Assembly (NCBI RefSeq): GCF_965641715.1 | Contig: NZ_OZ282453.1 | Reading direction: 5' to 3' (one strand) | From: Escherichia coli | GTDB lineage: Bacteria; Pseudomonadota; Gammaproteobacteria; Enterobacterales; Enterobacteriaceae | DNA: 64,000 nt | Part shown: piece by piece, positions 12,230 to 30,623 of the stretch | Numbering within the stretch: the first letter of the stretch is position 1 | Layout of the letters: the number at the start of each line of letters is the position of its first letter | The notes under the pieces: generated by a model | Told to the model about the DNA's origin: nothing | What the model saw: only the letters and a program-made list of their open reading frames with translations | The model's database searches: none | Made by a program: the position numbers and the translations under genes

Positions 12230-12520
12230 TTAGGGAGTAGGTGATAATCTATTCCCTTTATTAATTGCTCTTGCCTTATTTCTCATCCCCTCAAACTGTT
12301 GACCTGAGTTTTCTTCAAACCCATCTCGCCACTTATAATAATCAGCAGCGCGCCATCGGGACATCCGACCTATTTTTATAGGTTTTGGAAAGCGATTCAG
12401 AGAAATCAATCGATAAATCCATTTGTCACTTAATAAACAATCGGAAGTAATAAACTTCATATCGATCAGAGAATCCATTGAAGGTCGTTGCAAAGTAGTA
12501 TTATCATGTTTAGATAACAT
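12230..12520 (-). CDS. alpA: AlpA-family phage transcriptional regulator
   Basis: KFITSDCLLSDKWIYRLISLNRFPKPIKIGRMSRWRAADYYKWRDGF matches AlpA-type HTH proteins. Confidence 0.7.
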   Translation of the reverse strand: MLSKHDNTTLQRPSMDSLIDMKFITSDCLLSDKWIYRLISLNRFPKPIKIGRMSRWRAADYYKWRDGFEENSGQQFEGMRNKARAINKGNRLSPTP

Positions 12521-12645
12521 TCATCATTCTCCGTTTATCTAAGTCTATTGGCTTCAACACGGAAAATTAAAACATAGGTTATAAATGAGAAAAATGTGAC
12601 TAATGAAAAAAATCCAAAATCATTAGTCACAATAATTGTTAACAT

Positions 12646-13470
12646 TTAGTTAAACTTAATGTTTTTCATGCAACTACGTAGCAAGCTAACAACAGTATCA
12701 TAGCTCAAAGGTGGTTCTCCGGTCTTAGGCCAGAACTCACTGGCATGTTGAAAAAGATAATCAGCTATCGCTGCTGGACTCTCTCTTCTTAGCCTCATAT
12801 CACGATGATAGAGCGAAATAATAGCCATGAGTATTTCAGTTCGAGGAACAGCATGTTTTTGTTTTTGCGCCTCAGATTGTGATTTATATTTATTGGCGTT
12901 TTTTATCCGTTTTTGTTCGCATAAGACTATATCAATGAATTTTTGAATCTGTACCTTTGTAATCCACAAAACCTCAAAAAGATAATAATTTTCTTTTTCA
13001 TCATAATTTACATAAAGAATTACCTTACAATTTATATTAGGCGTACCCGCCAGTAGAAAATGAATAGGCCAGGAATCCGGTTGCCCCTCATGCTTAACTA
13101 ACAGATCTTTATATTCATAATCAACAGCCCATAAACCGGATATAAAGCATCGAATAAAACCATTTTTATCAATTAAATTATTTTCATCAGGGATTCTTAT
13201 AGAGCTTAAGTCTGACAACATAATATTGCCATTTCTATCTCGTGGTAAATATTTCAGATTAGATAAGAACTCATCCAGTTGACCATCAATCTTCAAACCA
13301 CATGAAACATCATACTCATCATCATGGAATTCCATGCATAGCTCTACATCTCGTTCTCTGGCAAACCAGAGTATATCCTTTTCACTACAACCAATTTTTT
13401 CTGAAGCTTCATCCAACTGGTAGTAATCTCTGAGCAGAGAATCAGTATTATTAATTTTTAAAATATTCAT
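12646..13470 (-). CDS. hypothetical AT-rich protein of unknown function, translationally coupled to integrase
   Basis: 274 aa; ATGA start/stop overlap with int; low GC relative to flanks; no motif recognised. Confidence 0.4.
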   Translation of the reverse strand: MNILKINNTDSLLRDYYQLDEASEKIGCSEKDILWFARERDVELCMEFHDDEYDVSCGLKIDGQLDEFLSNLKYLPRDRNGNIMLSDLSSIRIPDENNLIDKNGFIRCFISGLWAVDYEYKDLLVKHEGQPDSWPIHFLLAGTPNINCKVILYVNYDEKENYYLFEVLWITKVQIQKFIDIVLCEQKRIKNANKYKSQSEAQKQKHAVPRTEILMAIISLYHRDMRLRRESPAAIADYLFQHASEFWPKTGEPPLSYDTVVSLLRSCMKNIKFN

Positions 13471-14726
13471 TTATGAGTACCAATTAGCTCAGATAAATAA
13501 TTAGCATACCATTGCATCATTTCTCTTCTCCCTTCGAGATATTGGGCATGGTTATAAATTCCACGAATAGAGTTTTTGTCCGAATGAGCAAGCTGGGTTT
13601 CAATCCAAGCGCTGTTAAATCCTTTCTCATGTAGAATTGTACTCATCGTATGCCTGAAACCATGTCCCGTAACACGCCCTGCATATCCAATACGTTTAAA
13701 CACCTGATTGATGCTTGCTTCACTCATAAATTTGCTAGGATCGTTGCGTCCAGGGAACATCAGCGGGTAGTTCCCAGTTAGTTCTTTCAAACTTTTGAGA
13801 TGGGATAATGCTTGTTTTGGTAACGGGACAATATGGCTCCTACGCATTTTCATACGTTCTTTTGGGATCTCCCACACCGCATTATCAAAATCCACCTCTC
13901 GCCACTCACCTGCTCGTAGTTCTCCAGTTCGTAGACCTGTCAGGATAAGTAAATGCGCCCCCAACAATACAATTGGACTTCCTGAATAAGAATTAAGGGC
14001 ATTAAAGAACTCCGGTAGTTCGTTGGCTTTGAGGAATGGATAGTGGACTGCTTCATGTCCTTGCATCGCACTGGCAAGATCCGGTGCCGGATTGTAGATT
14101 GCCCTACCCGTTACGATGGCATAGCGAAAAACTTCACCGCATCGCTGACGGACTTTCTTCGCTTTCTCCATAGCGCCTCGAGCTTCTATCAACCTCAGAA
14201 CTTCAAGCAGTTCAAGGGGCTGAATATCAGCTATAGGTCTGTGCCCAATATGCGGAAAAATGTCTTTCTCAAATGCCTCAATGATGTCGGAAGCATAGCC
14301 CTCAGACCATTTGGATGATTTCATTTTGTGCCACTCTAACGCCACTTCTCTGAATGGGTTAAGTGTCTCAATCGCTGCGTTTAAAGCCTGCTTTTTGGCT
14401 TTTTTGACTTCGCCGGGATCTTCACCTGCTGCGAGTAGTTTCTTTGCGTCTTCTCGTTTTTGTCTGGCATCAGCAAGTGTGACTGTTGGATAAACACCAA
14501 AGGACAATCGTTTCTCTTTACCAGCAAAACGGTATTTCATACGCCAGTAACGCGAGCCATTAGGTTCGACCTGAAGGTATAGGCCACCTCCATCAAACAG
14601 CTTATAGCTCTTCTCTTTTCCTTTCGCAGCTTCAACCTTGCGGGCATTCAGCATCATTGGGGGCACATTTCCTAGACCGAACAGAACATGCCCCTGATTG
14701 TGCCCCCAACCGCGTGTTGATTTCAA
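13467..14726 (-). CDS. int: P4-type tyrosine integrase (probable start at MLNARKV, 14654)
   Basis: KEKSYKLFDGGGLYLQVEPNGSRYWRMKYRFAGKEK N-terminus and C-terminal HGFRHT...Y catalytic region; adjacent to tRNA-Thr. Confidence 0.9.
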   Translation of the reverse strand: MKSTRGWGHNQGHVLFGLGNVPPMMLNARKVEAAKGKEKSYKLFDGGGLYLQVEPNGSRYWRMKYRFAGKEKRLSFGVYPTVTLADARQKREDAKKLLAAGEDPGEVKKAKKQALNAAIETLNPFREVALEWHKMKSSKWSEGYASDIIEAFEKDIFPHIGHRPIADIQPLELLEVLRLIEARGAMEKAKKVRQRCGEVFRYAIVTGRAIYNPAPDLASAMQGHEAVHYPFLKANELPEFFNALNSYSGSPIVLLGAHLLILTGLRTGELRAGEWREVDFDNAVWEIPKERMKMRRSHIVPLPKQALSHLKSLKELTGNYPLMFPGRNDPSKFMSEASINQVFKRIGYAGRVTGHGFRHTMSTILHEKGFNSAWIETQLAHSDKNSIRGIYNHAQYLEGRREMMQWYANYLSELIGTHK

Positions 14727-14820
14727 GAGACAAGGGTTGACCTCAAACGTATGAAAACAACGTAATATATATGTTTTTAAATGATTTTGTTGATGTGGGT
14801 TGACTTGGGAAAACTAGGTG

Positions 14821-14838
14821 ATGGTGCCGATAATAGGA
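14821..14838. repeat. attL core: 18 bp at thrW 3' end, repeated at 3194..3211
   Basis: exact 18-mer match. Confidence 0.6.
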
Positions 14839-14897
14839 GTCGAACCTACGACCTTCGCATTACGAATGCGCTGCTCTACCAACTGAGCTATATCGGC
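14822..14897 (-). tRNA. thrW: tRNA-Thr (anticodon CGU)
   Basis: reverse complement reads GCCGATATAGCTCAGTTGGTAGAGCAGCGCATTCGTAATGCGAAGGTCGTAGGTTCGACTCCTATTATCGGCACCA. Confidence 0.9.
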
Positions 14898-15011
14898 CCT
14901 GAAAGGACATGTTCACGAACGTGAATCACGGTGGACAAGGGTAAAACTAACCGGGCGATGCGTCAATGGCCTTGTGAATCAAATGGCTACTTTTGCATCA
15001 CCCGGTTTTAT

Positions 15012-16265
15012 TTACGCACGAATGGTGTAATCACCAATGCCGATCCACTTGTAAGTGGTCAGTGCTTCCAGCCCCATTGGGCCACGCGCGTGGAGTTTTT
15101 GTGTGCTTACCGCCACTTCCGCACCCAGTCCAAACTGGCCGCCGTCGGTAAAACGCGTAGAGGCGTTAACGTAAACAGCGGACGAATCCACTTCGTTAAC
15201 AAAACGCTGGGCGTTGCGCATATCGCGGGTCAGGATCGCATCGGAGTGTTGTGTGCCGTGTTCACGAATATGGGCGATGGCATCGTCAAGATCGCTGACG
15301 ATTTTGACGTTCAAATCTAATGACAGAAACTCATCGTCATACTCTTCGGCTTTAACCGCCACCACCTTCGCGGGGCCTGCCTGCAACTGTGTCAGCGCAG
15401 CTGCATCTGCGTGTACTGTCACGCCGCTTTCCGCCATTTGTTTGCTTAATGCGGGCAGGAAGCTATCGGCGATGTTTTTATTCACCAGCAACGTTTCTAC
15501 CGTATTACATGTGCTCGGACGCTGAGTTTTCGCGTTGACGATCACTTTTAATGCTTCAGCGATCTCTGCACTTTCATCAACGTAAATATGGCATACGCCT
15601 ATACCACCTGTGATCACCGGGATCGTCGACTGTTCGCGGCACAGTTTATGCAAACCAGCCCCGCCGCGCGGGATCAGCATGTCGATGTATTTATCCATAC
15701 GCAGCATTTCACTGACCAGCGCACGGTCAGGATTATCAATCGCCTGCACGGCACCCGCCGGTAAGCCACAGGATTTCAGGGCGTCCTGAATCACCGCCAC
15801 CGTTGCAGCGTTAGTGCGACAGGTTTCTTTGCCACCGCGCAGGATCACCGCGTTACCTGTTTTCAGGCACAGCGAAGCGACATCAACCGTCACGTTCGGG
15901 CGCGCTTCATAAATCACGCCAATAACCCCCAGCGGTACGCGACGACGCTCAAGACGCAGGCCGCTGTCCAGTACGCCGCCATCGATTACCTGCCCCACCG
16001 GATCGGCGAGGTTGCACACCTGGCGCACATCATCGGCAATGCCTTTCAGCCGTGCGGGCGTCAGTGCCAGACGGTCAAGCATCGCTTCGCTAAGGCCATT
16101 GGCACGCGCGTCAGCAACATCCTGGGCGTTAGCGTTGAGGATGATTTCGCTTTGTGCTTCCAGTTCATCGGCGATTTTTTCCAGCACGCGATTTTTTTCG
16201 CGGCTGGAGAGTTGCGCTAATTTATACGAGGCTTGCTTCGCGGCAATGCCCATTTGTTCCAGCAT
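15012..16265 (-). CDS. proA: gamma-glutamyl phosphate reductase
   Basis: full-length match to ProA. Confidence 0.95.
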
Positions 16266-16276
16266 CGGCCAGCTCC

Positions 16277-17380
16277 TTAACGGGTAATCATGTCATCACG
16301 GTGAACGGCAACCGGGCCGTATTCATATCCCAGTATTGCATCAATTTCTTGCGAGTGGTGTCCGGCAATACGGCGTAATGCATCGCTGTTGTAACGACTG
16401 ACGCCGTGGGCGATATCGCGACCTTCGAGGTTACAAATGCGGATGACTTCACCACGCGAGAAATTGCCAGTCACGCTTTTAATGCCTTTCGGCAACAGGG
16501 AGCTGCCGCGTTCAAGAATGGCGGCAGTTGCCCCTTCATCTACCGTGATTTCACCCGCCGGCGGCGCACCGAAAATCCAGCGTTTACGGTTTTCAAGCGG
16601 AGTCGCCTGGGCATGGAACAGCGTACCGACGGAAATGCCTTCCATCACATCACCAATGACGCCCGGCTTGCTGCCCGCGGCAATAATGGTGTCGATACCC
16701 GCACGGCAAGCCACGTCCGCGGCCTGCAATTTGGTACTCATGCCGCCAGTTCCGAGGCCTGAAACGCTGTCACCGGCAATCGCGCGCAGTGCGTCATCAA
16801 TGCCGTAAACATCTTTAATCAGTTCTGCCTGCGGATTGCTGCGCGGGTCAGCGGTATACAAACCTTTTTGATCGGTCAGCAGCAACAGTTTATCGGCACC
16901 CGCCAGAATCGCCGCCAGCGCAGAAAGGTTGTCGTTATCGCCGACTTTAATCTCTGCCGTAGCGACAGCATCGTTCTCATTGATTACCGGAACGATATTG
17001 TTATCGAGCAACGCACGCAGGGTGTCGCGGGCGTTCAGGAAGCGTTCACGGTCTTCCATATCAGCACGAGTCAGCAGCATTTGCCCGACGTGAATGCCAT
17101 AAATCGAAAACAGCTGTTCCCACAGTTGAATCAGTCGACTCTGCCCTACCGCCGCCAGCAGTTGTTTCGAGGCGATAGTCGCTGGCAGTTCCGGGTAACC
17201 CAGGTGCTCACGTCCGGCGGCGATCGCGCCCGACGTCACAATAACAATCCGATGCCCGGCGGCATGTAACTGCGCGCACTGGCGAACAAGTTCAACGATA
17301 TGGGCACGGTTCAGACGGCGCGATCCGCCTGTTAGCACACTGGTGCCGAGTTTTACCACCAGCGTCTGGCTGTCACTCAT
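16277..17380 (-). CDS. proB: glutamate 5-kinase
   Basis: [19 protein letters not shown] start; ORF track extends upstream spuriously. Confidence 0.95.
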
Positions 17381-17568
17381 GATTCTCTGCCATTCAATTT
17401 TAGGAAAAATGATATCAAACGAACGTTTTAGCAGGACTGTCGTCGGTTGCCAACCATCTGCGAGCAAAGCATGGTGTTTTGTTGCGCGGGATCAGCAAGC
17501 CTAGCGGCAGTTGTTTACGCTTTTATTACAGATTTAATAAATTACCACATTTTAAGAATATTATTAAT

Positions 17569-17588
17569 CTGTAATATATCTTTAACAA
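17569..17588 (+). promoter_or_regulatory. Pho box (PhoB binding site) of phoE promoter
   Basis: ctgtaatatatctttaacaa ~80-100 bp upstream of phoE start. Confidence 0.5.
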
Positions 17589-17667
17589 TCTCAGGTTAAA
17601 AACTTTCCTGTTTTCAACGGGACTCTCCCGCTGAATATTCGCGCGTTAATTAAAATCAGGAATGAAA

Positions 17668-18723
17668 ATGAAAAAGAGCACTCTGGCATTAGTGGTGATG
17701 GGCATTGTGGCATCTGCATCCGTACAGGCCGCAGAAATATATAACAAAGACGGTAATAAACTGGATGTCTATGGCAAAGTTAAAGCCATGCATTATATGA
17801 GTGATAACGACAGTAAAGATGGCGACCAGAGTTATATCCGTTTTGGTTTTAAAGGCGAAACACAAATTAACGATCAACTGACTGGTTATGGTCGTTGGGA
17901 AGCAGAGTTTGCCGGTAATAAAGCAGAGAGTGATACTGCACAGCAAAAAACGCGTCTCGCTTTTGCCGGGTTGAAATATAAAGATTTGGGTTCTTTCGAC
18001 TATGGCCGTAACCTGGGCGCGTTGTATGACGTGGAAGCCTGGACCGATATGTTCCCGGAATTTGGTGGCGACTCCTCGGCGCAGACCGACAACTTTATGA
18101 CCAAACGCGCCAGCGGTCTGGCGACGTATCGGAACACCGACTTCTTCGGCGTTATCGATGGCCTGAACTTAACCCTGCAATATCAAGGGAAAAACGAAAA
18201 CCGCGACGTTAAAAAGCAAAACGGCGATGGCTTCGGCACGTCATTGACATATGACTTTGGCGGCAGCGATTTCGCCATTAGTGGGGCCTATACCAACTCA
18301 GATCGCACCAACGAGCAGAACCTGCAAAGCCGTGGCACAGGCAAGCGTGCAGAAGCATGGGCTACAGGTCTGAAATACGATGCCAATAATATTTATCTGG
18401 CAACTTTTTATTCTGAAACACGCAAAATGACGCCAATAACTGGCGGCTTTGCCAATAAGACACAGAACTTTGAAGCGGTCGCTCAATACCAGTTTGACTT
18501 TGGTCTGCGTCCATCGCTGGGTTATGTCTTATCGAAAGGGAAAGATATTGAAGGTATCGGTGATGAAGATATGGTCAATTATATCGATGTCGGGGCTACA
18601 TATTATTTCAACAAAAATATGTCAGCGTTTGTTGATTATAAAATCAACCAACTGGATAGCGATAACAAATTGAATATTAATAATGATGATATTGTCGCGG
18701 TTGGCATGACCTATCAGTTTTAA
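17668..18723 (+). CDS. phoE: phosphate-starvation outer membrane porin
   Basis: signal peptide [22 protein letters not shown]-terminal VGMTYQF. Confidence 0.95.
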
Positions 18724-18731
18724 TGATTATT

Positions 18732-18758
18732 GCCGGATGTGATGCATCCGGCATATTT
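18732..18758. terminator. hairpin terminator between convergent phoE and crl
   Basis: gccggatg..catccggc stem followed by T-rich tract. Confidence 0.5.
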
Positions 18759-18761
18759 CAC

Positions 18762-19220
<459 letters not shown>

Positions 19221-20465
19221 TTAACACAAACGTTTTTCGATCCATTCTGTGATTTCCTGAAGACCTTTGTCAAAATTCCGATACACCGGGTTAAATGGGA
19301 TCTCTAATAATTTACCGTCAGCAGATGATGAGGTGATTAAGCGTGAGTCCTCTTCCGGGCTGAACGGATCGTTCTTCCAGTAGCCTGATAACATTGGCGT
19401 TGGGCAGCGACGTCCCAGCAATCCTTGCACTTTTAATGAATAGCGATTCAGCTCCACGCGCAACGCTTCGTCGGAAGCATCATGCATCCCCAAACGACTG
19501 GCCAGAACGTCAAGATACATTTCCGGCACCTGTTGCTGGCACTTAAAATCACTCAACAGGGTATGAACTACCGGACCAAGACAGGCAACCGCTTTCAGAC
19601 GCGGCGATTCAAGGTATGCCAGACGCACGGCAACGTTAGCGCCGAAACGGAAACCAAAGGCCGCGACGCGAGTGTGATCCACCCACGGTACGTTAGGCAG
19701 TGCCTTTAAGACGTGCTGATGCAACAGGCTGGAGTCCTGGGTGAGCTTCCATTTTGAAGAAAAGCCCACCGACGGCATATCAATAGTCAGCATCGCAATG
19801 CCGCGCGGCGCAAAATAACGTTCATACAGGCTGTAATAGTCCGTCTGCATCGCATCCAGACCACCACACATTAATACCGTCGGGAACGGGCCATCGCCTT
19901 TCGGCATATGCAAAAAGCCGGTGATGGGCGCACCGCCAGGTACGGTAAACTCCATCTGCCGCATCGTGCCCGGTAGACGCTGAGCGGCCTCTTCATAGGC
20001 GCGGTTTGACAAAGCCTGCGCTTGCTCGGCCAGGTCATCTCCTTTCAGATGAGGATAGGCGGCAATGTTGTACAACGTAGCCGCATGCAGCCAGTGACGA
20101 CCACTGAGTTGCGGATCTTCTTCCGCACAGGCTTTTTGTTGCCACACCATCGCCTGGGTGGCCCACTCATAAATCCAGTTGCCGCCACGGTAGCCAATCA
20201 CCGTATCGTATAAATCATCGTCGGTACGTTCGGCATCGCTCATCACAATACGTGCCTGGACGTCGAGGATTTCGCGTGGGTCAATGCCGCGCCAGATCCA
20301 CATCAGACGGTTAATCATGCGATACCAGTGAGGGATGGTTTTACCATCAAGGGCCGACTGCACAGGCGGTTGTGCGCCGTGATTAAAGCGGCGGACTAGC
20401 GTCGAGGTTTCAGGATGTTTAAAGCGGGGTTTGAACAGGGTTTCGCTCAGGTTTGCCTGTGTCAT
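19221..20465 (-). CDS. frsA: esterase FrsA
   Basis: 414 aa alpha/beta hydrolase matching FrsA. Confidence 0.9.
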
Positions 20466-20556
20466 GGATGCAGCCTCCAGAATACTTACTGGAAACTATT
20501 GTAACCTGCCTGAAGTTAAAAAGAACAACGCCCGGCAATGCCAGGCGTTGAAAAGA

Positions 20557-21015
20557 TTAGCGACCGGAGATTGGCGGGACGAATACGACGCCCATATCCC
20601 ACGGCTGTTCGATCCAGGTATCTTGCGGGATATCAACAACATAATCATCAACCAGCGGACGACCAGCCGGTTTTGCAAAGATGGTGACAAAGTGCGCTTT
20701 TGGATACATTTCACGAATCGCAACCGCAGTACCACCGGTATCCACCAGGTCATCAATAACGATGAAGCCTTCGCCATCGCCTTCTGCGCGTTTCAGCACT
20801 TTAAGCTCGCGCTGGTTGTCGTGATCGTAGCTGGAAATACAAACGGTATCGACATGACGAATACCCAGTTCACGCGCCAGTAACGCACCCGGTACCAGAC
20901 CGCCACGGCTTACGGCAATAATGCCTTTCCATTGTTCAGAAGGCATCAGTCGGCTTGCGAGTTTACGTGCATGGATCTGCAACATGTCCCAGGTGACGAT
21001 GTATTTTTCGCTCAT
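20557..21015 (-). CDS. gpt: xanthine-guanine phosphoribosyltransferase
   Basis: 152 aa, [13 protein letters not shown]ase motif. Confidence 0.95.
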
Positions 21016-21275
21016 GTGAAGTGTCCCAGCCTGTTTATCTACGGCTTAAAAAGTGTTCGAGGGGAAAATAGGTTGCGCGAGATTATAGAGATCTGGCGCA
21101 CTAAAAACCAGTATTTCACATGAGTCCGCGTCTTTTTACGCACTGCCTCTCCCTGACGCGGGATAAAGTGGTATTCTCAAACATATCTCGCAAGCATGTC
21201 TTGTGTTGACAACATTTTCTGCTAACCCTGTGACCTGCAATACTGTTTTGCGGGTGATCGACAAGGAGACTTAAC

Positions 21276-22733
21276 GTGTCTGAACTGTCTCAATTATCTC
21301 CACAGCCGCTGTGGGATATTTTTGCCAAAATCTGTTCTATTCCTCACCCGTCCTATCATGAAGAGCAACTCGCTGAATACATTGTTGGTTGGGCAAAAGA
21401 GAAAGGTTTCCATGTCGAACGCGATCAGGTAGGTAATATCCTGATTCGTAAACCTGCTACAGCAGGTATGGAAAATCGTAAACCGGTCGTCTTGCAGGCC
21501 CACCTCGATATGGTGCCGCAGAAAAATAACGACACCGTGCATGACTTCACGAAAGATCCTATCCAGCCTTATATTGATGGCGAATGGGTTAAAGCGCGCG
21601 GCACCACGCTGGGTGCGGATAACGGCATTGGTATGGCCTCTGCACTGGCGGTTCTGGCTGACGAAAACGTGGTTCACGGTCCGCTGGAAGTGCTGCTGAC
21701 TATGACCGAAGAAGCCGGTATGGACGGTGCTTTTGGCTTACAGAGCAACTGGTTGCAGGCTGATATTCTGATTAACACCGACTCCGAAGAAGAAGGTGAA
21801 ATCTACATGGGTTGCGCGGGGGGTATCGACTTCACCTCCAACCTGCATTTAGATCGTGAAGCGGTTCCAGCTAGTTTTGAAACCTTCAAGTTAACCTTAA
21901 AAGGTCTGAAAGGCGGTCACTCCGGCGGTGAAATCCACGTTGGCCTCGGTAATGCCAACAAACTGCTGGTGCGCTTCCTGGCGGGTCATGCAGAAGAACT
22001 GGACCTGCGTCTTATCGATTTCAACGGCGGCACACTGCGTAACGCCATCCCGCGTGAAGCCTTTGCGACCATTGCTGTCGCAGCTGATAAAGTCGACGCC
22101 CTGAAATCTCTGGTGAATACCTATCAGGAGATCCTGAAAAACGAGCTGGCAGAGAAAGAGAAAAATCTGGCCTTGTTGCTGGACTCTGTAGCGAACGATA
22201 AAGCTGCCCTGATTGCGAAATCTCGCGATACCTTTATTCGTCTGCTGAACGCCACCCCGAACGGTGTGATCCGCAATTCCGACGTGGCAAAAGGTGTGGT
22301 CGAAACCTCCCTGAACGTCGGTGTGGTGACCATGACTGACAATAACGTAGAAATTCACTGCCTGATCCGTTCTCTGATCGACAGCGGTAAAGACTACGTG
22401 GTGAGCATGCTGGATTCGCTGGGTAAACTGGCTGGCGCGAAAACCGAAGCGAAAGGCGCATATCCTGGCTGGCAGCCGGACGCTAATTCTCCGGTGATGC
22501 ATCTGGTACGTGAAACCTATCAGCGTCTGTTCAACAAAACGCCGAACATCCAGATTATCCACGCGGGCCTGGAATGTGGTCTGTTCAAAAAACCGTATCC
22601 GGAAATGGACATGGTTTCTATCGGGCCAACAATCACCGGTCCACACTCTCCGGATGAGCAAGTTCACATCGAAAGCGTAGGTCATTACTGGACACTGCTG
22701 ACTGAACTGCTGAAAGAAATTCCGGCGAAGTAA
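21276..22733 (+). CDS. pepD: cytosol non-specific dipeptidase (Xaa-His dipeptidase)
   Basis: 485 aa M20 peptidase, GTG start. Confidence 0.95.
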   Translation: MSELSQLSPQPLWDIFAKICSIPHPSYHEEQLAEYIVGWAKEKGFHVERDQVGNILIRKPATAGMENRKPVVLQAHLDMVPQKNNDTVHDFTKDPIQPYIDGEWVKARGTTLGADNGIGMASALAVLADENVVHGPLEVLLTMTEEAGMDGAFGLQSNWLQADILINTDSEEEGEIYMGCAGGIDFTSNLHLDREAVPASFETFKLTLKGLKGGHSGGEIHVGLGNANKLLVRFLAGHAEELDLRLIDFNGGTLRNAIPREAFATIAVAADKVDALKSLVNTYQEILKNELAEKEKNLALLLDSVANDKAALIAKSRDTFIRLLNATPNGVIRNSDVAKGVVETSLNVGVVTMTDNNVEIHCLIRSLIDSGKDYVVSMLDSLGKLAGAKTEAKGAYPGWQPDANSPVMHLVRETYQRLFNKTPNIQIIHAGLECGLFKKPYPEMDMVSIGPTITGPHSPDEQVHIESVGHYWTLLTELLKEIPAK

Positions 22734-23641: not shown

Positions 23642-24094
23642 TTAATGTTGCGGTTTATATCGCATATAAAAATTAGTAAACCAAGCTCCACGGCATTCAA
23701 CGCGCTGCTGCTTAACTGTCTGAAAACCATAACGTTCAAAAAAGGGTTTTGCGGTTATGCTGGCGTCCACCGTAAGTTCGGATTCAGACTTAATCAAAGG
23801 TTTTAACAAAGCGCTGGCAACCCCACGGCGGGTGTATTCAGGGTCAACAAATAACATATCGATATAATGTTCAATGCGGGAAATAAAACCAACCGGTTGT
23901 GCATTAATGACTGCAACCCGCACTTGTGATTTCGCGAGTTTCTCCTTCCAGCGAGATTCGTCAATCTGCGCCCAGGCGGCAATTTGTTGTGGTGAATAAT
24001 GCTGACTGGCGGTCATCATAACCGCTCTAATGAAAATAGCGCATAGTTGCTGAAAATCGCCAGGCTGATAGTTTCTTATTTGTATGTTATTCAT
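23642..24094 (-). CDS. yafP: GNAT-family acetyltransferase
   Basis: MNNIQIRNYQPGDFQQLCAIF start matches YafP; ORF track adds spurious upstream codons. Confidence 0.85.
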   Translation of the reverse strand: MNNIQIRNYQPGDFQQLCAIFIRAVMMTASQHYSPQQIAAWAQIDESRWKEKLAKSQVRVAVINAQPVGFISRIEHYIDMLFVDPEYTRRGVASALLKPLIKSESELTVDASITAKPFFERYGFQTVKQQRVECRGAWFTNFYMRYKPQH

Positions 24095-24125
24095 AATGTA
24101 AGTTTTGTTTTGAATACCCGCATCC

Positions 24126-24419
24126 TTATTCCTTAAAGTCATTGAAATCATCATCCGTCATATCATTAAGATATTGTTCAGCGCGGCGTGTAATTTCCTC
24201 TAATCTTGCAGCACTTGGACGGAAGCGCGCCTTTATGGGCTTTTTCTCCTCTTGTTCAGCAAGCATGTCCATTAACGCTTCGAATGCGCTGGCACTTAAG
24301 AGATATCCTGCGGGGCGATTATTAGAAAGAACCGCAACCGGTTGATCAATAAAGTATTTAGCTGGGTTTTTACGTAACTCAGTAATATTGACCGATTTTT
24401 CAGCGAGAATTCGATGCAT
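24126..24419 (-). CDS. yafN: antitoxin YafN (Phd/YefM family)
   Basis: 97 aa match to YafN. Confidence 0.9.
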   Translation of the reverse strand: MHRILAEKSVNITELRKNPAKYFIDQPVAVLSNNRPAGYLLSASAFEALMDMLAEQEEKKPIKARFRPSAARLEEITRRAEQYLNDMTDDDFNDFKE

Positions 24420-24470
24420 ACAGTGATCCCCTCATAATAATGCACACTAGAATAGACATAATAGTATACA

Positions 24471-25526
24471 TCATAATCCCAGCACCAGTTGTCTTTCCAT
24501 TTGAGGGTCAAGCAACGTCACATGCAGCCCCACCAGTCGCACACCGCGCCCACCGCGGCGTTCATCCCAGGTTTTACGCGCGGTGGCGATTAGATCAGCT
24601 TTATTCAGCCGCGGCCAGACGTGCTCCTGGGTGGTTTGCTGAAAATCGTCGAACTTTAATTTCACCCCCTGGCGAGCAATCAGTAAATCAGGTTTTACCT
24701 TTGCCAGACGGCGTTCAAGTTCCGGATACAGCCGCTCGATAATCGCTTCACATTCAGACCAGTGATGAATATCTTCCGCCATCGTGCGTTCCACGCCGAC
24801 GGATTTTCGTAACCGTTCGCTGTTAACATCGCGCTCGTCAATCCCCTGACTACGCTCCCACAAAATGCGGCCAAATTTGCCAAAGCGTTTAAGCAGAATC
24901 ACCAGATCACACTTTTGTACATCACCGCAGGTCCGCAGCCCCATCGCTTCCAGTTTTGCCGCCGAGACTTTGCCGACGCCGGGGATTTTTGCCAGCGGTA
25001 AGGTTTGCAGAAATGCCGGAACTTCTGCCGGAGTAATCACAAACTGGCCGTTGGGTTTATTCATGTCGGAGGCGATTTTGGCGAGAAACTTTACTGGTGC
25101 CACGCCCGCAGACGCCGTCAGTTGCAGCTCGCTGAAAATCGTCTGGCGGATTTCCTGGGCGATGAGGGTCGCAGAACCGTGGCAATGGACGCTGTCGGTG
25201 ACATCGAGATAAGCCTCATCCAGTGACAACGGCTCAATGCGCGAGGTGTAGCGCGAGAAGATTTCACGGATATGATTTGAGGCTTCTTTGTAGGCGTCAA
25301 AGCGCCCCGGAAGCAAGGTGAGATGTGGGCATAATTTGAGCGCCATCCCTGTCGGCATAGCGCTGCGTACGCCAAATTTACGCGCGGGATAATTGGCGGT
25401 GCTGATCACCCCCCGACGTTCGCGGCTGCCGCCAATAGCAATAGGGATATCGCGCAGGGCGGGATTGTCGCGCATCTCCACTGCGGCGAAAAAGCAGTCC
25501 ATATCCACATGAATGATTTTACGCAT
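24471..25526 (-). CDS. dinB: DNA polymerase IV
   Basis: 351 aa Y-family polymerase. Confidence 0.95.
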
Positions 25527-25540
25527 TACTCACCTCTCAA

Positions 25541-25560
25541 CACTGGTAAAGTATACAGTG
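25541..25560 (-). promoter_or_regulatory. LexA (SOS) box upstream of dinB
   Basis: minus-strand cactgtatactttaccagtg = CTG-N10-CAG, 15-34 nt upstream of dinB ATG. Confidence 0.7.
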
Positions 25561-25596
25561 ATTTCAGGGTTTGAGAAATGCGTAAAGATTCAGCAT

Positions 25597-26300
25597 TTAG
25601 CGCGTTCGCTGCGAAAGCACCTGCTGCTTATCCAGCTTTTGCACCAGCGGCTGCACCACTTTATCCCCATGCTGACCAAAGTATTGATACAGCGTATCGG
25701 ACGCACTTTTGGTCAGCACCATAATCTCAATACGCCGATTGCCCGCGCTTTGCGGATTTTTGGCATCCAGCAGCATCTGGTCAGCCATTGCGCTTACCTG
25801 CATCACTTTATCTTCCGGCATTCCGGCCTCTTCCAGCACCCGACGAGCCGAAAGCGCGCGATCGCCCGAAAGGTTCCAGTTGTTGTAGATATTGTTTTTG
25901 TAGGCCATCGCATCGGTATGCCCGGTAATAATAATTTTGTTATCGAGCGAGTCGAACACTGGCGCGAGCTCCACCAGCAGCGTTTTAAAGAACGGCATAA
26001 TCTGCGCGCTGCCGCGTTCAAACATATTGCGGTTCTGGTCGTCTTTAATCAGCACGCGTAATCCCTGCGGGACAATCTCCATCTCCAGATTCGCTTCCAT
26101 ATGCGCATCACGGGCAATGGTGTTGATACTGGTTGCCAACTCGCCAAGCTCGGTGGCGGATTTCTTCTTCAGCAGCGCCGTTTTCTCATTCACATCACGC
26201 GCTTTTTTCTCCGTCTCTTCCGGCACCGCCACGGTGGCAGGTTTTGGCGGATGAGACGGGCTGATTTTATTTAACGGCGACAGCCCACCACCGTTAAAAA
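25597..26300 (-). pseudogene. lafU: lateral flagellar motor protein LafU (MotB-like) 3' fragment
   Basis: OmpA-like C-terminus with NRRIEIMVL; 5' end replaced at junction ~26300-26330; upper boundary approximate. Confidence 0.6.
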
Positions 26301-26326
26301 TCGACTGCCCGTGCAGCGCGGCGATA

Positions 26327-28066
26327 ATGCTTTCACGCTCGGATTTACTGACGCTGTTGACAATCAACTTTATCGTCGTCACCAAAGGGGCCGAGCGTAT
26401 TTCCGAGGTTTCTGCCCGCTTTACCCTGGACGCGATGCCCGGCAAACAGATGGCGATTGACGCTGACCTTAACGCCGGGTTGATCAACCAGGCGCAGGCG
26501 CAAACCCGGCGTAAAGATGTCGCCAGCGAGGCCGATTTCTACGGCGCGATGGACGGGGCGTCGAAGTTTGTGCGCGGGGATGCCATCGCCGGGATGATGA
26601 TTCTGGCGATCAACCTGATCGGTGGTGTCTGTATCGGGATCTTCAAATACAACCTGAGCGCTGACGCTGCCTTCCAGCAATATGTGCTGATGACCATCGG
26701 CGACGGGCTGGTGGCGCAGATCCCTTCCCTGCTGCTCTCCACCGCGGCGGCGATTATCGTCACCCGCGTCAGCGACAACGGCGATATCGCCCATGACGTA
26801 CGCCACCAACTGCTGGCAAGCCCGTCGGTGCTCTACACCGCTACCGGAATTATGTTTGTGCTGGCGGTAGTGCCGGGGATGCCCCACCTGCCGTTTTTGC
26901 TGTTCAGCGCCCTGCTTGGCTTTACCGGCTGGCGGATGAGCAAACGCCCGCAGGCGGCGGAGGCGGAAGAGAAAAGCCTCGAAACGCTGACCCGTACCAT
27001 CACCGAAACCAGCGAGCAACAGGTCAGTTGGGAGACTATTCCGCTGATCGAGCCTATCAGTTTAAGCCTCGGCTACAAGCTGGTGGCGCTGGTGGACAAA
27101 GCCCAGGGCAACCCGCTCACCCAGCGTATTCGCGGCGTGCGACAGGTGATATCCGACGGCAACGGCGTGCTGCTGCCGGAGATCCGCATTCGGGAAAACT
27201 TCCGCCTTAAGCCCAGTCAGTACGCTATTTTCATCAACGGCATTAAGGCCGATGAAGCAGATATTCCGGCGGATAAACTGATGGCCCTGCCCTCCAGCGA
27301 AACCTACGGCGAGATAGACGGCGTGCTGGGGAACGACCCGGCGTACGGGATGCCGGTGACCTGGATCCAGCCCGCGCAGAAGGCGAAGGCACTAAATATG
27401 GGGTATCAGGTGATCGACAGCGCCAGCGTGATTGCCACCCATGTGAATAAGATTGTACGCAGCTATATTCCTGATTTGTTTAACTATGACGACATCACAC
27501 AGTTGCATAACCGTTTGTCGTCGATGGCACCGCGCCTGGCGGAGGATTTAAGCGCGGCGCTGAATTACAGCCAGTTGCTGAAAGTGTACCGCACACTACT
27601 GACCGAAGGCGTTTCCCTGCGCGACATCGTCACCATCGCCACCGTGCTGGTCGCCAGTAGCGCGGTGACCAAAGATCACATTCTGCTGGCGGCCGATGTG
27701 CGCCTGGCGCTGCGGCGCAGCATTACTCATCCGTTCGTTCGCAAACAGGAGCTGACGGTGTATACGCTGAATAATGAGCTGGAAAATCTGCTCACCAACG
27801 TAGTGAATCAGGCGCAACAGGGCGGCAAAGTGATGCTCGACAGCGTGCCGGTCGACCCGAATATGCTCAACCAGTTCCAGAGCACGATGCCGCAGGTGAA
27901 GGAGCAGATGAAAGCGGCGGGGAAAGATCCGGTGCTGCTGGTGCCGCCGCAGTTGCGTCCTTTGCTGGCGCGCTATGCAAGGTTGTTTGCGCCGGGGCTG
28001 CATGTGCTGTCGTATAACGAAGTGCCGGACGAGCTGGAGTTGAAGATTATGGGGGCCTTGAGTTGA
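26327..28066 (+). pseudogene. lfhA: lateral flagellar export protein LfhA (FlhA-like), promoterless 5'-truncated fragment
   Basis: begins inside the FlhA motif FTLDAMPGKQMAIDADLNAGLI..FYGAMDGASKFVRGDAIAG; lacks N-terminal TM segments. Confidence 0.65.
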
Positions 28067-28096
28067 TTGAGGAGGCTATATAAGGGCCAGGACCGT

Positions 28097-28185
28097 CCCC
28101 TCGCCCCTTTGGGGAGAGGGTTAGGGTGAGGGGAAAGTGCGCGCTGAGCCCCTCACCCCGGCCCTCTCCCCAAAGGGGCGAGGGA
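28097..28185. repeat. REP-type imperfect palindrome (two ~36-bp inverted arms)
   Basis: ccctcgcccctttggggagagggttagggtgagggg ... cccctcaccccggccctctccccaaaggggcgaggg. Confidence 0.6.
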
Positions 28186-28227
28186 GAAAATCGTGTACGA
28201 CTTTAGCTTTTTCGCGGTATTGCCGTC

Positions 28228-28977
28228 CTACAAAATCGTCTCTTCCGTCAAAATCCGCCGCGCGCCTAAAAAATGATCCTGCCAGAAAGGTTCAGCTAAC
28301 CGACTTACCCGAATGGTTTCCCCGGTGCGCGGTGACTCAATAAACTGACCGTCGCCCAGATACACCCCCATATGGTCGGCAATCTCGCGGCTGTGGATAT
28401 GGAAAAACAGCAAATCTCCCCGGCGCAGGTCGTTATTCGCCACAATCGTTGCCCGATGGTAGTGATACATCTCATTAGCCGTACGCGGGAGCTTCGCCTC
28501 GAGGATCTTGTTGTAGGCATAAAAAACCAACCCGCTACAGTCAAAGCCTTTATCAGGCCGCGTGCCGCCCCAGACGTAAGGCTTGCCAAGCTGCTGCTCC
28601 AGGCGGTGAATCGCCACTTCGGTGATGTTATGCAGATGGTCGCTGCTTAAAAAGTGGTTATTTTCCGCCAGCGCCTGCCAGCGTCTGTCACTCGCCTTGA
28701 GCGGCGCAGGAAACCATTCTGGATGCTGTTTTATCTGTTCGCGGTTGTGCTGGCGCAGCGCCCTTCTGCTTTCGGCATTGCCTTCCACAATATAGCTGGC
28801 CTGCTTTTTCAGATGGGTTTGGTACTGTTTTAATAAACGCGCACGGTTTTGCATCCGCTGGCGGGCGGCGTAGCTGAAAGAGATATGTGATGTGGTGGCG
28901 CAGGCAAATGAAGAAAACGGCAAGCAAAGCAACAGTAATCCCGACAACACAAAAGAGGGAATCGACGGCAAAGACAT
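28228..28977 (-). CDS. yafL: NlpC/P60-family lipoprotein endopeptidase
   Basis: lipoprotein signal and C-terminal NlpC/P60 region (YVWGG...DCSGLV...H). Confidence 0.85.
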   Translation of the reverse strand: MSLPSIPSFVLSGLLLLCLPFSSFACATTSHISFSYAARQRMQNRARLLKQYQTHLKKQASYIVEGNAESRRALRQHNREQIKQHPEWFPAPLKASDRRWQALAENNHFLSSDHLHNITEVAIHRLEQQLGKPYVWGGTRPDKGFDCSGLVFYAYNKILEAKLPRTANEMYHYHRATIVANNDLRRGDLLFFHIHSREIADHMGVYLGDGQFIESPRTGETIRVSRLAEPFWQDHFLGARRILTEETIL

Positions 28978-29154
28978 TCTCAATAATGGCTGGTCATGCA
29001 TTGATGTTGCAGTGTATCCTGGCCCGTACCTGAACAAACTTAATAAACCATTATTATAAAATTAATAAATATATTTCAGTTTATTATGTAAAAACATCCG
29101 TTTATTAAATTACTCATGGATTGTCGCTGTTGCTCATTTGAGCTACAATTCAAG

Positions 29155-29170
29155 CTGAATAAATATACAG
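29155..29170 (+). promoter_or_regulatory. LexA (SOS) box upstream of dinJ
   Basis: CTGaataaatataCAG, 17 nt upstream of dinJ ATG. Confidence 0.6.
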
Positions 29171-29186
29171 CACAGGAGATACCCCA

Positions 29187-29447
29187 ATGGCTGCTAACGC
29201 GTTTGTTCGCGCCCGAATCGATGAAGATCTGAAGAATCAGGCGGCGGACGTACTGGCCGGGATGGGGCTGACCATCTCTGACCTGGTTCGCATAACCCTC
29301 ACAAAGGTCGCGCGTGAAAAGGCATTGCCGTTTGATTTACGCGAGCCTAATCAATTAACCATTCAATCAATCAAAAACAGCGAAGCTGGCGTTGATGTTC
29401 ATAAGGCCAAAGACGCCGATGATTTATTTGATAAATTAGGAATTTAA
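29187..29447 (+). CDS. dinJ: antitoxin DinJ (RelB family)
   Basis: 86 aa match to DinJ. Confidence 0.9.
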   Translation: MAANAFVRARIDEDLKNQAADVLAGMGLTISDLVRITLTKVAREKALPFDLREPNQLTIQSIKNSEAGVDVHKAKDADDLFDKLGI

Positions 29448-29449
29448 AT

Positions 29450-29730
29450 ATGATTCAAAGGGATATTGAATACTCGGACAATTTTCAAAGGATGTAAAAC
29501 TTGCACAAAAGCGTCATAAGGATATGAATAAATTGAAATATCTTATGACGCTTCTTATCAATAATACTTTACCGCTTCCAGCTGTTTATAAAGACCACCC
29601 GCTGCAAGGTTCATGGAAAGGTTATCGCGATGCTCATGTCGAACCGGACTGGCTCCTGATTTACAAACTTACCGATAAACTTTTACGATTTGAGAGAACT
29701 GGAACTCACGCGGCGCTCTTTGGGTAAAGC
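29450..29730 (+). pseudogene. yafQ: toxin YafQ, frameshifted near the 5' end
   Basis: ATG at 29450 gives MIQRDIEYSDNFQRM then TAA; the YafQ body (MNKLKYLMTLL...) continues from 29524 in a different frame. Confidence 0.65.
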
Positions 29731-29882
29731 CCGCTTCCGATGAAATTTGTAAACCCTGCGCCGACAGGCTTGCGTAAAACTCTTTTGGTGATAATGTGAG
29801 CCTTCCAAATCCAGACTATTCCGATTTGGGATCCATTTTGCCGTCCTGGCGTGTGTAACCGTTTTATCAAGGAATAAGCAGT

Positions 29883-30623
29883 ATGCGTAAAATCGCATTA
29901 ATTCTTGCGATGTTGTTGATCCCGTGCGTTTCGTTTGCCGGTTTGCTGGGCAGCAGTAGCTCGACCACGCCAGTGAGCAAAGAGTATAAGCAGCAGTTGA
30001 TGGGATCCCCTGTCTACATCCAGATCTTCAAGGAAGAACGTACGCTCGATCTCTACGTCAAAATGGGCGAGCAATATCAACTGCTCGACAGCTATAAAAT
30101 CTGTAAATATTCCGGCGGCTTAGGGCCAAAACAGCGTCAGGGCGATTTCAAAAGCCCGGAAGGGTTTTATAGCGTCCAGCGTAATCAGTTAAAACCAGAC
30201 AGCCGTTACTACAAAGCGATTAATATTGGTTTCCCCAATGCCTATGACCGTGCGCATGGTTATGAAGGGAAATACCTGATGATCCACGGCGATTGTGTTT
30301 CCATCGGCTGCTACGCGATGACCAATCAGGGCATTGACGAGATTTTCCAGTTCGTTACTGGCGCACTGGTATTTGGTCAGCCGAGCGTGCAAGTGAGCAT
30401 TTACCCGTTCCGCATGACCGACGCTAATATGAAGCGCCACAAATATTCCAACTTTAAGGACTTCTGGGAGCAACTGAAGCCGGGTTACGACTACTTTGAG
30501 CAAACCCGTAAGCCACCGACCGTTTCTGTGGTCAATGGTCGTTACGTGGTCAGCAAGCCGTTAAGCCACGAAGTTGTGCAACCACAGCTGGCATCAAACT
30601 ACACGCTCCCCGAGGCAAAATAA
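29883..30623 (+). CDS. yafK: L,D-transpeptidase-like periplasmic protein
   Basis: signal peptide plus YkuD-like domain. Confidence 0.85.

What the first reader, a model, noticed from the sequence alone, without database searches (positions are those of the whole stretch)
25597..28066. Flag-2 lateral flagellar locus reduced to two promoterless gene ends
lafU (minus) and lfhA (plus) both lack their 5' ends and meet at ~26300-26330, consistent with deletion of the whole lateral flagellar cluster between them, as in K-12.
Basis: partly seen in the sequence, partly recalled or inferred. Interest (0 to 1): 0.3.

Follow-up and report, generated by a model that had tools for sequence, protein, structure and literature searches.

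The report
Known Flag-2 flagellar deletion scar
This is the well-known scar left in most E. coli when the 35-kb second (lateral, Flag-2) flagellar gene cluster was deleted, leaving only the tail ends of its two outermost genes; the scar is ordinary, but the same base-level junction also occurs in several other genera, and that is unexplained.

Summary
Observation confirmed; interpretation supported; already known. Window 25597-28066 holds the 3' 769 nt of lafU (minus strand, codons 53-307) joined head-to-head to the 3' 1704 nt of lfhA (plus strand, codons 128-697).

Alignment to an intact Flag-2 locus (E. coli 873.10) puts the junction at a shared ATC, 26363-26365, inside an imperfect 15-nt direct repeat (11/15). 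In 873.10 the missing segment is 35,320 bp.

The window is gaplessly collinear with K-12 lfhA (b0229) and lafU (b0230). A 200-nt junction probe is contiguous in 4,085 of 5,426 complete E. coli genomes, and no alternative crossover was found. The scar is published (Ren et al. 2005, as cited by De Maayer 2020 and others).

Beyond the finding:
- The remnants show no decay: no indels in 13 E. coli scars, and variants are overwhelmingly synonymous.
- Scar and intact alleles are intermixed.
- The same codon-level junction occurs in E. albertii, Citrobacter, Cedecea, Atlantibacter, Ewingella and an 'Enterobacter' sp.

This could mean one old allele kept fresh by recombination with intact alleles, or recurrent site-directed deletion. 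I could not decide between them.

The parts
25597..26365 (-). lafU (motB-like lateral flagellar stator gene) remnant: codons 53-307 plus stop, 769 nt. It lacks the N-terminal cytoplasmic segment and the single transmembrane helix.
   Evidence: NCBIfam NF005273 LafU, profile 42-297. Gapless homology to intact lafU of 873.10 up to window 26365. A2 alignment of 17 E. coli alleles.
26354..26368 (.). Deletion junction. The hybrid copy of an imperfect 15-nt direct repeat is CTGTTGACAATCAAC. Intact lafU side: CTGTTGACAATCCAC. Intact lfhA side: CTGATGATCATCAAC. The crossover lies within ATC at 26363-26365.
   Evidence: Three-way alignment. All 12 E. coli scars carry the hybrid and all 7+5 intact alleles carry the parental forms. 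Three alternative crossover products are absent from 5,426 genomes.
26363..28066 (+). lfhA (flhA-like export-gate gene) remnant: codons 128-697 plus stop, 1704 nt. It lacks about the first 127 residues, the N-terminal part of the membrane domain.
   Evidence: Pfam FHIPEP profile 99-656 and TIGR01398 profile 114-677. Gapless homology to intact lfhA from 26354/26363.
26327..28066 (+). Open frame of 579 aa (the old 'fhiA' ORF of K-12). Its first 12 codons (MLSRSDLLTLLT) are antisense lafU, fused in frame to lfhA codon 128.
   Evidence: the ORF listing; junction mapping.
25597..26487 (-). Open frame of 296 aa containing the lafU remnant. Its first ~41 codons are antisense lfhA. PGAP calls the equivalent of 25597-26382 (261 aa) as a non-pseudo lafU CDS in scar genomes.
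   Evidence: the ORF listing; RefSeq annotation of 10 scar genomes.
24471..25526 (-). dinB (DNA polymerase IV): conserved left flank of the scar, downstream of lafU on the same strand.
   Evidence: ORF; annotations of matching genomes.
28098..28184 (.). 36-nt inverted repeat (92% complementary, 15-nt loop) filling the lfhA-yafL spacer where K-12 has rayT. This is right-flank context, not part of the scar.
   Evidence: the repeat finder. No rayT between 28067 and 28227. Part of it is multicopy in E. coli genomes.

Best explanation
The window carries the K-12-type Flag-2 deletion allele. An intact Flag-2 locus runs from lafU (last gene of cluster 3, read leftward) to lfhA (last gene of the lfiMNPQR-lfhBA operon, read rightward). 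One deletion of about 35 kb removed everything from lafU codon ~52 to lfhA codon ~127 and joined the two gene tails head to head at a 3-bp ATC inside a 15-nt imperfect direct repeat.

Shown: both genes lose their 5' coding parts, and every gene that lies upstream of them in the intact locus is gone. Inferred: their operon promoters went with those genes. What remains are two non-functional gene ends; that they are non-functional is inferred from the missing transmembrane segments and missing partner proteins.

The window inherited this allele, which about 75% of E. coli share. It did not make the deletion itself.

The remnants stay open and look selectively constrained. My inference is that they are not an isolated pseudogene lineage. 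They belong to the same recombining gene pool as the 3' parts of intact lfhA and lafU (about 25% of strains), where purifying selection still acts. Flag-2 gain and loss by homologous recombination through these arms has been documented in ST131.
For: Identity and truncation of both genes.

Break points and the 35,320-bp missing segment against intact 873.10.

Gapless collinearity with K-12 and its lfhA/lafU pseudogene annotation.

The junction 200-mer is contiguous in 4,085 of 5,426 complete genomes and split in two in the rest.

The same hybrid repeat is in all 12 sampled scars. No alternative crossover exists.

Literature: PMC6993521, PMC3032704, PMC5369007 (which reports fragments of 769 bp and about 1,700 bp, the sizes found here) and PMC11420993.

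Gene-pool reading:
- Scar and intact alleles are interleaved. The K-12 and NMBU scars have lfhA remnants identical to the intact lfhA of 873.10.
- Diversity among scars equals diversity among intact alleles and equals the between-class divergence, right up to the junction.
- Scar-only variants are 14 nonsynonymous to 114 synonymous. Intact-only variants are 5 to 41.
- ST131 subclade B2 regained Flag-2 from a scar-bearing ancestor (PMC5369007).
- Decay does occur. The E. albertii type strain has a 22-nt frameshifting deletion, and shorter FlhA-like protein clusters exist in E. coli.
Against: Nothing contradicts the identification.

Against the 'refreshed by recombination' part:
- Three Atlantibacter species all carry the scar with dN/dS of 0.02-0.10 at dS of 0.3-1.2. 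Yet De Maayer et al. found no intact Flag-2 in 5 Atlantibacter or 2 Ewingella genomes. I found one intact Atlantibacter allele.
- The scar strain NMBU-W12E19 equals the intact strain 873.10 over 3.8 kb of flank with zero differences. A fresh deletion produces that more easily than recombination with a diverged donor.

Expression of the remnants was not tested.
Confidence: 0.93

Rival explanations
1. Recurrent, site-directed deletion. The lafU/lfhA junction is a deletion hot spot, or the target of an unknown sequence-specific process. Scars then arise again and again from intact loci, in E. coli lineages and independently in other genera. The window's scar would be a relatively young derivative of an intact allele, not a copy of one old event.
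For: The same codon-level junction (LafU I53 / FlhA I128) is found in E. coli, E. albertii, Citrobacter sp. MGH106, Cedecea, three Atlantibacter species, Ewingella (Yersiniaceae) and 'Enterobacter' sp. Ap-916. Chromosomal contexts differ among the genera where the flanks were examined.

Every 5'-truncated lafU among the GTDB species representatives has this junction.

The Atlantibacter scar equals the conspecific intact lfhA from the first base after the junction.

10 of 11 scars keep the full frame, and dN/dS is low between species.

There is a perfect scar/intact flank pair in E. coli, and diversity among scars is not reduced next to the junction.
Against: No mechanism is visible:
- The exact microhomology is only 2-3 nt. 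The 15-nt repeat is 11/15 in E. coli and seems absent on the lafU side in Ewingella and Ap-916.
- By my estimate, 38 kb should contain many better direct repeats.
- Three other crossovers possible within the same repeat never occur in 5,426 genomes.
- Where a 4-nt GATC microhomology is available (Cedecea), it is not the one used.
- No recombinase is annotated in the cluster.

Flag-2 gain by recombination is documented, so recombination alone can move the allele within a species.
Confidence: 0.35
2. One ancient deletion allele. The scar arose once, before the Enterobacteriaceae/Yersiniaceae genera split. It has persisted beside the intact locus as a long-lived presence/absence polymorphism. In each lineage its flanks are continually homogenised with intact alleles.
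For: A single origin explains why the junction is identical to the base even where no microhomology exists today, and why no alternative junctions are seen.

Within E. coli the scar/intact state is unlinked from SNPs as close as ~10 nt, as expected for an old polymorphism in a recombining pool.

About 25% intact is reported for both E. coli and E. albertii.

Inner and outer genes show the same E. coli-Atlantibacter synonymous divergence, so the intact locus itself looks vertically inherited.
Against: It needs both alleles to survive every speciation over a very long time in at least five lineages, including lineages where the locus sits in a different chromosomal context. It also needs intact alleles to be common enough to keep the remnants clean in Atlantibacter and Ewingella, where intact loci are rare or unknown.
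Confidence: 0.35
3. The truncated genes are functional. The 579-aa FlhA fragment and/or the LafU fragment have been co-opted, are expressed from promoters inside each other's antisense region, and are kept by purifying selection on their own account.
For: Both frames are open in 13 of 13 E. coli scars and in nearly all other taxa. dN/dS between scar alleles of different species is 0.02-0.2, the same as between intact alleles. A weak promoter-like match lies just upstream of the 579-aa frame. PGAP annotates the lafU remnant as a normal CDS.
Against: - LafU loses its only membrane anchor, and FlhA starts inside its membrane domain.
- All partner proteins are deleted.
- No start codon is conserved across genera; the Met sits at -12, -25 or -31 codons from the junction.
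- Two unrelated fragments would both need a new function.
- E. albertii carries a frameshifted copy. Many shorter FlhA-like protein variants exist in the protein collection, though some may be contig-end partials.
- Promoter-like hits are no more frequent than in shuffled sequence.
- dN/dS is equal in scar-scar and intact-intact comparisons (0.105 vs 0.112), as if the scars simply track the intact genes.
Confidence: 0.07

Closest known systems
E. coli K-12 MG1655 pseudogenes lfhA (b0229, formerly fhiA) and lafU (b0230, formerly mbhA)
   Same: Same genes, same orientation, same flanks (dinB on one side, yafL on the other), same junction. There is a gapless 3,963-nt alignment.
   Different: The window's lfhA remnant is only 94.5% identical to K-12's, against 98.3-98.5% for the lafU remnant and dinB. 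Its best match among 5,426 genomes is 97.1%. The window lacks rayT and yafO and has a frameshifted yafQ.
Intact Flag-2 locus (E. coli 042; here strain 873.10, NZ_CP061754.1)
   Same: Same chromosomal site between dinB and rayT/yafL. The retained parts of lafU and lfhA are orthologous, 97.3% (across yafN-dinB-lafU) and 94.3% identical.
   Different: The intact locus has full-length lafU (307 aa) and lfhA (697 aa), with about 40 flagellar genes between them. The window lacks those 35,320 bp.
lfhA/lafU remnants reported across Enterobacterales (De Maayer et al. 2020, PMC6993521; E. albertii, PMC11420993)
   Same: The same two outermost genes remain after en bloc loss. They were reported in 531 of 4,028 genomes, mostly in taxa that also have intact loci.
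   Different: In the parts I read, those papers do not say that the junction is identical to the codon across genera and families, or that the remnants lack signs of decay. Both were seen here.
Deletions between short imperfect direct repeats (lacI deletion hot spots; host-mediated precise excision of Tn10/Tn5). From my own knowledge, not tested here.
   Same: The junction lies in a short imperfect direct repeat. The ends of the deleted segment also show a weak inverted similarity: the sense strands of the two genes match at 21 of 30 nt (my reading).
   Different: Here the repeats are 35 kb apart with only 3 nt of exact identity. Known hot spots use longer or closer repeats, so this is a resemblance, not a demonstrated mechanism.

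Membership tests
K-12-type Flag-2 deletion scar (lafU'/'lfhA pseudogene pair) | A LafU (MotB-like, OmpA-domain) homologue lacking its 5' end | tested here: met
   NF005273 LafU match starts at profile position 42. Codons 1-52 are absent relative to the intact 307-aa gene.
K-12-type Flag-2 deletion scar (lafU'/'lfhA pseudogene pair) | An FlhA/FHIPEP homologue of the Flag-2 type lacking its 5' end | tested here: met
   FHIPEP match starts at profile position 99 of 657. Codons 1-127 are absent relative to the intact 697-aa gene. It is 94-97% identical to E. coli lfhA.
K-12-type Flag-2 deletion scar (lafU'/'lfhA pseudogene pair) | The two remnants abut head to head with no Flag-2 gene between them | tested here: met
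   The two homology blocks overlap by 15 nt at 26354-26368.
K-12-type Flag-2 deletion scar (lafU'/'lfhA pseudogene pair) | Junction at the same base as in K-12 | tested here: met
   Gapless collinearity with NC_000913.3 across the junction. The hybrid repeat is identical in 12 scar genomes. A 200-nt probe is 100% identical in O157:H7 TR01.
K-12-type Flag-2 deletion scar (lafU'/'lfhA pseudogene pair) | Chromosomal context dinB | scar | (rayT) yafL | tested here: met
   dinB at 24471-25526(-) and yafL at 28228-29037(-). rayT is absent in this strain, as in GF43.
K-12-type Flag-2 deletion scar (lafU'/'lfhA pseudogene pair) | Remnants are promoterless and not expressed | tested here: inconclusive
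   All upstream operon genes are gone (versus the window). A consensus scan gives one weak match at 26301-26328(+), and the region's total is no higher than in shuffles. No expression data were available.
Functional Flag-2 (lateral-type) flagellar system | Presence of the ~39 conserved Flag-2 genes (clusters 1-3) | tested here: not met
   Only the two gene ends are present. The 35,320 bp carrying the other genes are missing.

The most novel reading that the evidence does not exclude
The Flag-2 scar is not one lucky accident of E. coli history. It is the product of a precise, recurrent excision of the whole 35-kb flagellar cluster at one codon pair (LafU I53 / FlhA I128), operating independently in Escherichia, Citrobacter, Cedecea, Atlantibacter, Ewingella and others. 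That would be an unrecognised sequence-directed way of switching off, irreversibly, a costly surface organelle.

The equally unexcluded alternative is a presence/absence polymorphism older than the enterobacterial families, whose 'pseudogene' arms never decay because they recombine with intact alleles and serve as landing pads for regaining the cluster.
Probability: 0.35. Interest if true: 0.65.

Novelty: already known. Interest (0 to 1): 0.3.

Why it matters
As found in the window, it matters little. It is a textbook example of gene-cluster loss and a reminder that K-12 'fhiA/mbhA' are gene ends, not genes.

The follow-up raises a sharper question that is cheap to test. Why is the junction identical to the base in at least six genera of two families? 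Why do 2.5 kb of supposedly dead DNA show no decay, with frames open and dN/dS of 0.02-0.1 across species?

If the cause is recurrent precise excision, a new deletion mechanism or hot-spot rule is waiting to be found. If the cause is an old allele kept clean by recombination, it would show that pseudogene remnants can be 'evergreen' when they share a gene pool with functional copies. It would also show that such remnants act as homology arms for regaining a 35-kb organelle locus.

Tried and rejected
1. Full-length genes on realignment: rejected. The remnants have 255 of 307 and 570 of 697 codons.

2. The ATG at 26327 is antisense lafU.

3. The remnants as freely decaying pseudogenes: not what the data show. 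There are no indels in 13 E. coli scars, and the nonsynonymous:synonymous ratio is about 0.12 against about 3 expected under neutrality.

4. A single recent sweep of the scar in E. coli: rejected. Diversity among scars next to the junction is as high as among intact alleles.

5. The scar as resident, with the intact cluster re-imported from other genera: not supported. Inner genes (lfhB, lfiR, lfiP; dS 0.83-0.91) are as diverged between E. coli and Atlantibacter as the retained part of lfhA (dS 1.06). The low dS of lfhA codons 1-128 (0.5) is local.

6. Microhomology-driven recurrence: weak. Three other crossovers possible within the same repeat are absent from 5,426 genomes, and the repeat is not evident in Ewingella or Ap-916.

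7. A recombinase inside the cluster: none is annotated in 873.10. I saw an 8-bp inverted repeat around the lafU break point and a 12-bp palindrome at the lfhA break point. Both follow from conserved codons and are not conserved in all taxa, so I do not treat them as evidence.

8. Ren et al. 2005 (PMC545627) is not held in the library. Its content is taken only from papers that cite it.

9. Practical problems: several loci (for example L002, L005) were never exported to the Python sandbox, so sequences were passed through DNA alignment. One search failed on a length limit.
Full report
**What is in the window.**
The region is E. coli chromosome in the reverse of K-12 orientation. The genes run yafP, yafN, dinB (24471-25526, minus), then the finding, then yafL (28228-29037, minus), dinJ, yafQ and dpaA. 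The minus-strand ORF ending at 25597 matches NCBI's LafU equivalog (NF005273, E 1e-143), but only from profile position 42 of 297, and carries an OmpA domain. The plus-strand ORF ending at 28066 matches FHIPEP/FlhA only from profile position 99 of 657 (Pfam) or 114 of 678 (TIGR01398).

**Mapping the junction.**
I took an intact Flag-2 locus from E. coli O18ac:H14 strain 873.10 (NZ_CP061754.1). It has lafU (307 aa), about 40 flagellar genes and lfhA (697 aa) between dinB and rayT/yafL.
- BLASTN gives two gapless blocks. Window 24099-26368 matches the dinB-lafU side, and window 26354-28061 matches the lfhA side.
- The three-way alignment shows that the 15-nt overlap is an imperfect direct repeat. 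The lafU side reads CTGTTGACAATCCAC and the lfhA side reads CTGATGATCATCAAC, matching at 11 of 15 positions.
- The window carries the hybrid CTGTTGACAATCAAC, so the crossover lies within ATC at 26363-26365.
- lafU keeps 769 nt (codons 53-307) and lfhA keeps 1704 nt (codons 128-697). The missing segment is 35,320 bp in 873.10.
- These are the fragment sizes reported for an ST131 scar strain: 769 bp and about 1,700 bp (PMC5369007).
The ATG at 26327 that opens the 579-aa frame, and its first 12 codons, are antisense lafU. Likewise the first ~41 codons of the 296-aa minus-strand frame are antisense lfhA.

**Same allele as K-12, and how common it is.**
- The window aligns to MG1655 without a gap from 24099 to 28061. 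K-12 annotates the pseudogenes lfhA (b0229) and lafU (b0230) exactly there.
- A 200-nt probe centred on the junction is contiguous in 4,085 of 5,426 complete E. coli genomes. In the others it is split into a lafU half and an lfhA half.
- All 12 sampled scar genomes have the same hybrid repeat, and all sampled intact genomes have the parental forms.
- Synthetic probes for the three other crossovers possible inside the repeat find no exact match in any genome.
- The literature describes this deletion and its direct repeats (Ren et al. 2005 as cited in PMC6993521, PMC3032704, PMC5369007 and PMC11420993). The finding is real, correctly interpreted and already known.

**'Promoterless'.**
All genes upstream of lafU and lfhA in their operons are gone, so their native promoters are presumably gone too. 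That is an inference. The consensus scan finds one weak sigma-70-like site (TCGACT-16-GATAAT, 26301-26328, plus strand) just before the 579-aa frame. The region has no more such sites than shuffled sequence does. Expression was not testable here.

**The remnants do not look like decaying pseudogenes.**
- Across 13 E. coli scar alleles and 7+5 intact alleles there is not a single indel in 2.5 kb.
- Window versus K-12 in the lfhA remnant shows 85.5 synonymous and 10.5 nonsynonymous differences (dN/dS 0.034). The K-12 remnant is identical to the intact lfhA of 873.10 over 566 codons.
- Variants seen only in scars are 14 nonsynonymous to 114 synonymous. Variants seen only in intact alleles are 5 to 41, and shared variants are 13 to 122.
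- Diversity among scars, diversity among intact alleles and divergence between the two classes are all equal (about 3-6%), even in the first 200 nt from the junction.
- One scar strain (NMBU-W12E19) equals the intact strain 873.10 at every one of 1,340 + 757 + 1,698 flanking positions.
- Decay does occur. The E. albertii type strain has a 22-nt frameshifting deletion, and shorter FlhA-like protein clusters exist in the protein collection.

**The same junction in other genera.**
- Truncated FlhA-like proteins from other taxa start at the same residue (…|INF(I/V)VVTKGAERISE), preceded by antisense-lafU sequence.
- Their loci show an OmpA-domain gene head to head with the FHIPEP gene in chromosomal contexts unlike E. 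coli's. The DNA aligns across the junction without indels.
- In a scan of one genome per species, every 5'-truncated lafU has this junction at LafU I53 / FlhA I128. These are E. coli, E. albertii, Citrobacter sp. MGH106, Cedecea sulfonylureivorans, Atlantibacter hermannii, Atlantibacter sp. RC6 and Ewingella americana. No other truncation point appears.
- In Atlantibacter the scar's lfhA part is identical to a conspecific intact lfhA from the first base after the junction, while it differs from E. coli at many synonymous sites.
- Ten of eleven scar alleles from nine taxa keep the full 567-codon frame.
- Between three Atlantibacter species, scar-scar dN/dS is 0.017-0.033 for lfhA' (dS 0.33-0.81) and 0.06-0.10 for lafU' (dS 0.6-1.2). 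Yet De Maayer et al. found no intact Flag-2 in 5 Atlantibacter or 2 Ewingella genomes.

**How to read this.**
The identification (best explanation, 0.93) is not in doubt. The readings below compete only over how the allele arose and why it stays clean.
- *Remnants evolving neutrally since one deletion in each genus:* excluded by the dN/dS values.
- *Truncated proteins with a function of their own:* I rate this unlikely (about 0.07). LafU loses its only membrane anchor, FlhA starts inside its membrane domain, all partners are gone, no start codon is conserved, and scar-scar dN/dS equals intact-intact dN/dS (0.105 vs 0.112).
- *One old scar allele (about 0.35):* its arms share a recombining gene pool with the 3' parts of intact genes, where selection still acts. 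In E. coli, recombination is believed to overwrite a site far more often than mutation changes it (my knowledge, not tested here), so the arms would stay clean. ST131 shows that the cluster can be regained through these arms. This explains the base-identical junction even where no microhomology exists today. It requires both alleles to persist through many speciations and in different chromosomal contexts.
- *Recurrent, site-directed deletion (about 0.35):* this explains the fresh look of every scar, the perfect scar/intact pair in E. coli and the spread across families. I see no mechanism for it. The exact microhomology is 2-3 nt, better repeats must abound in 38 kb, and alternative crossovers never occur. 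A 4-nt GATC microhomology is not used where it is available, and no recombinase is annotated in the cluster.
- The E. coli-Atlantibacter comparison shows no break in evolutionary history at the junction: inner genes have dS of 0.83-0.91 and outer lfhA has 1.06. This argues against the intact cluster being a recent import.

**Verdict.**
The finding is a correct recognition of a known feature. Novelty: already known. I score interest at 0.3. The scar itself would surprise no specialist. The cross-family identity of the junction and the non-decay of the remnants, which I did not find stated in the papers available to me, make a cheap and decisive experiment possible: PCR for de novo junction formation in intact-locus strains.

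Noticed in passing
window 24099-24104 (between yafN 24126-24419 and yafP 23642-24154): The yafO toxin gene is missing. A 373-bp segment present in K-12 and 873.10 is deleted with a 6-nt overlap of the flanking homology blocks, leaving the antitoxin gene yafN and an extended yafP frame. GF43 has the same arrangement. Other strains lack yafN as well, with dinB directly followed by yafP.
   Followed up: partly
window ~29476 (yafQ, 29450-29727): yafQ (toxin of the dinJ-yafQ pair) has a 1-nt deletion (GGG to GG) in about codon 9 relative to K-12 and 873.10. Only a 67-aa internal frame stays open, while dinJ (29187-29447) is intact. Together with the yafO loss, both toxin genes next to the scar are inactivated while their antitoxins are kept.
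   Followed up: partly
window 28067-28227: rayT (the REP-associated tyrosine transposase of K-12) is absent. The spacer holds a 36-nt inverted repeat (28098-28133 / 28149-28184, 92% complementary). Part of it is multicopy in E. coli genomes and also occurs on a plasmid. Other strains carry rayT, hicAB, a hypothetical gene or nothing at this spot, so it is a small variable-cargo site.
   Followed up: partly
window 26400-30200: From the lfhA remnant rightwards the window is unusually diverged: 94.5% to K-12 in lfhA' and 96.7% in yafL-dpaA, against 98.3-98.5% in lafU' and dinB. The best lfhA' match among 5,426 complete genomes is only 97.1%, although window 2730-22000 is 99.5% identical to other E. 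coli. This looks like a recombination mosaic with a rare haplotype.
   Followed up: partly
window 1-22000: The left part of the window near proA/frsA contains an integrase, a TOPRIM/DUF927 protein and several hypothetical genes. This island-like insertion is shared at more than 80% coverage by only 8 of 5,426 genomes.
   Followed up: no
L047 (E. albertii NBRC 107761), A7 alignment columns 991-1012: The E. albertii type strain carries the same scar, but with a 22-nt deletion that frameshifts the lfhA remnant. It is the only disrupted copy among the 11 scar alleles compared.
   Followed up: partly
L016 (E. coli 720632), A1 alignment column 1465: An otherwise intact Flag-2 locus has a CAG to TAG nonsense mutation in lfhA (PGAP note: internal stop). 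Its lfhA differs at only 1 position from the K-12 scar remnant over the retained part.
   Followed up: no
L025-L032 (Atlantibacter, Cedecea-like, 'Enterobacter' sp. Ap-916): An NlpC/P60 (yafL-like) peptidase gene lies next to the scar in Atlantibacter, the Cedecea-like contigs and Ap-916: beside the lfhA end in the first two, beside lafU in Ap-916. The wider chromosomal context differs from E. coli's, so this gene may belong to the Flag-2 locus periphery. None was called in the Ewingella-like contigs L028/L029.
   Followed up: no
L001 2620-3003 vs L032 3001-3384 (lfhA codons 1-128): Between the intact lfhA genes of E. coli and Atlantibacter, synonymous divergence is about half in the first 128 codons (dS 0.5) of what it is in the rest of the gene and in lfhB, lfiR and lfiP (0.8-1.1). 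This suggests an extra constraint on the 5' coding sequence, which is exactly the part lost in the scar.
   Followed up: partly
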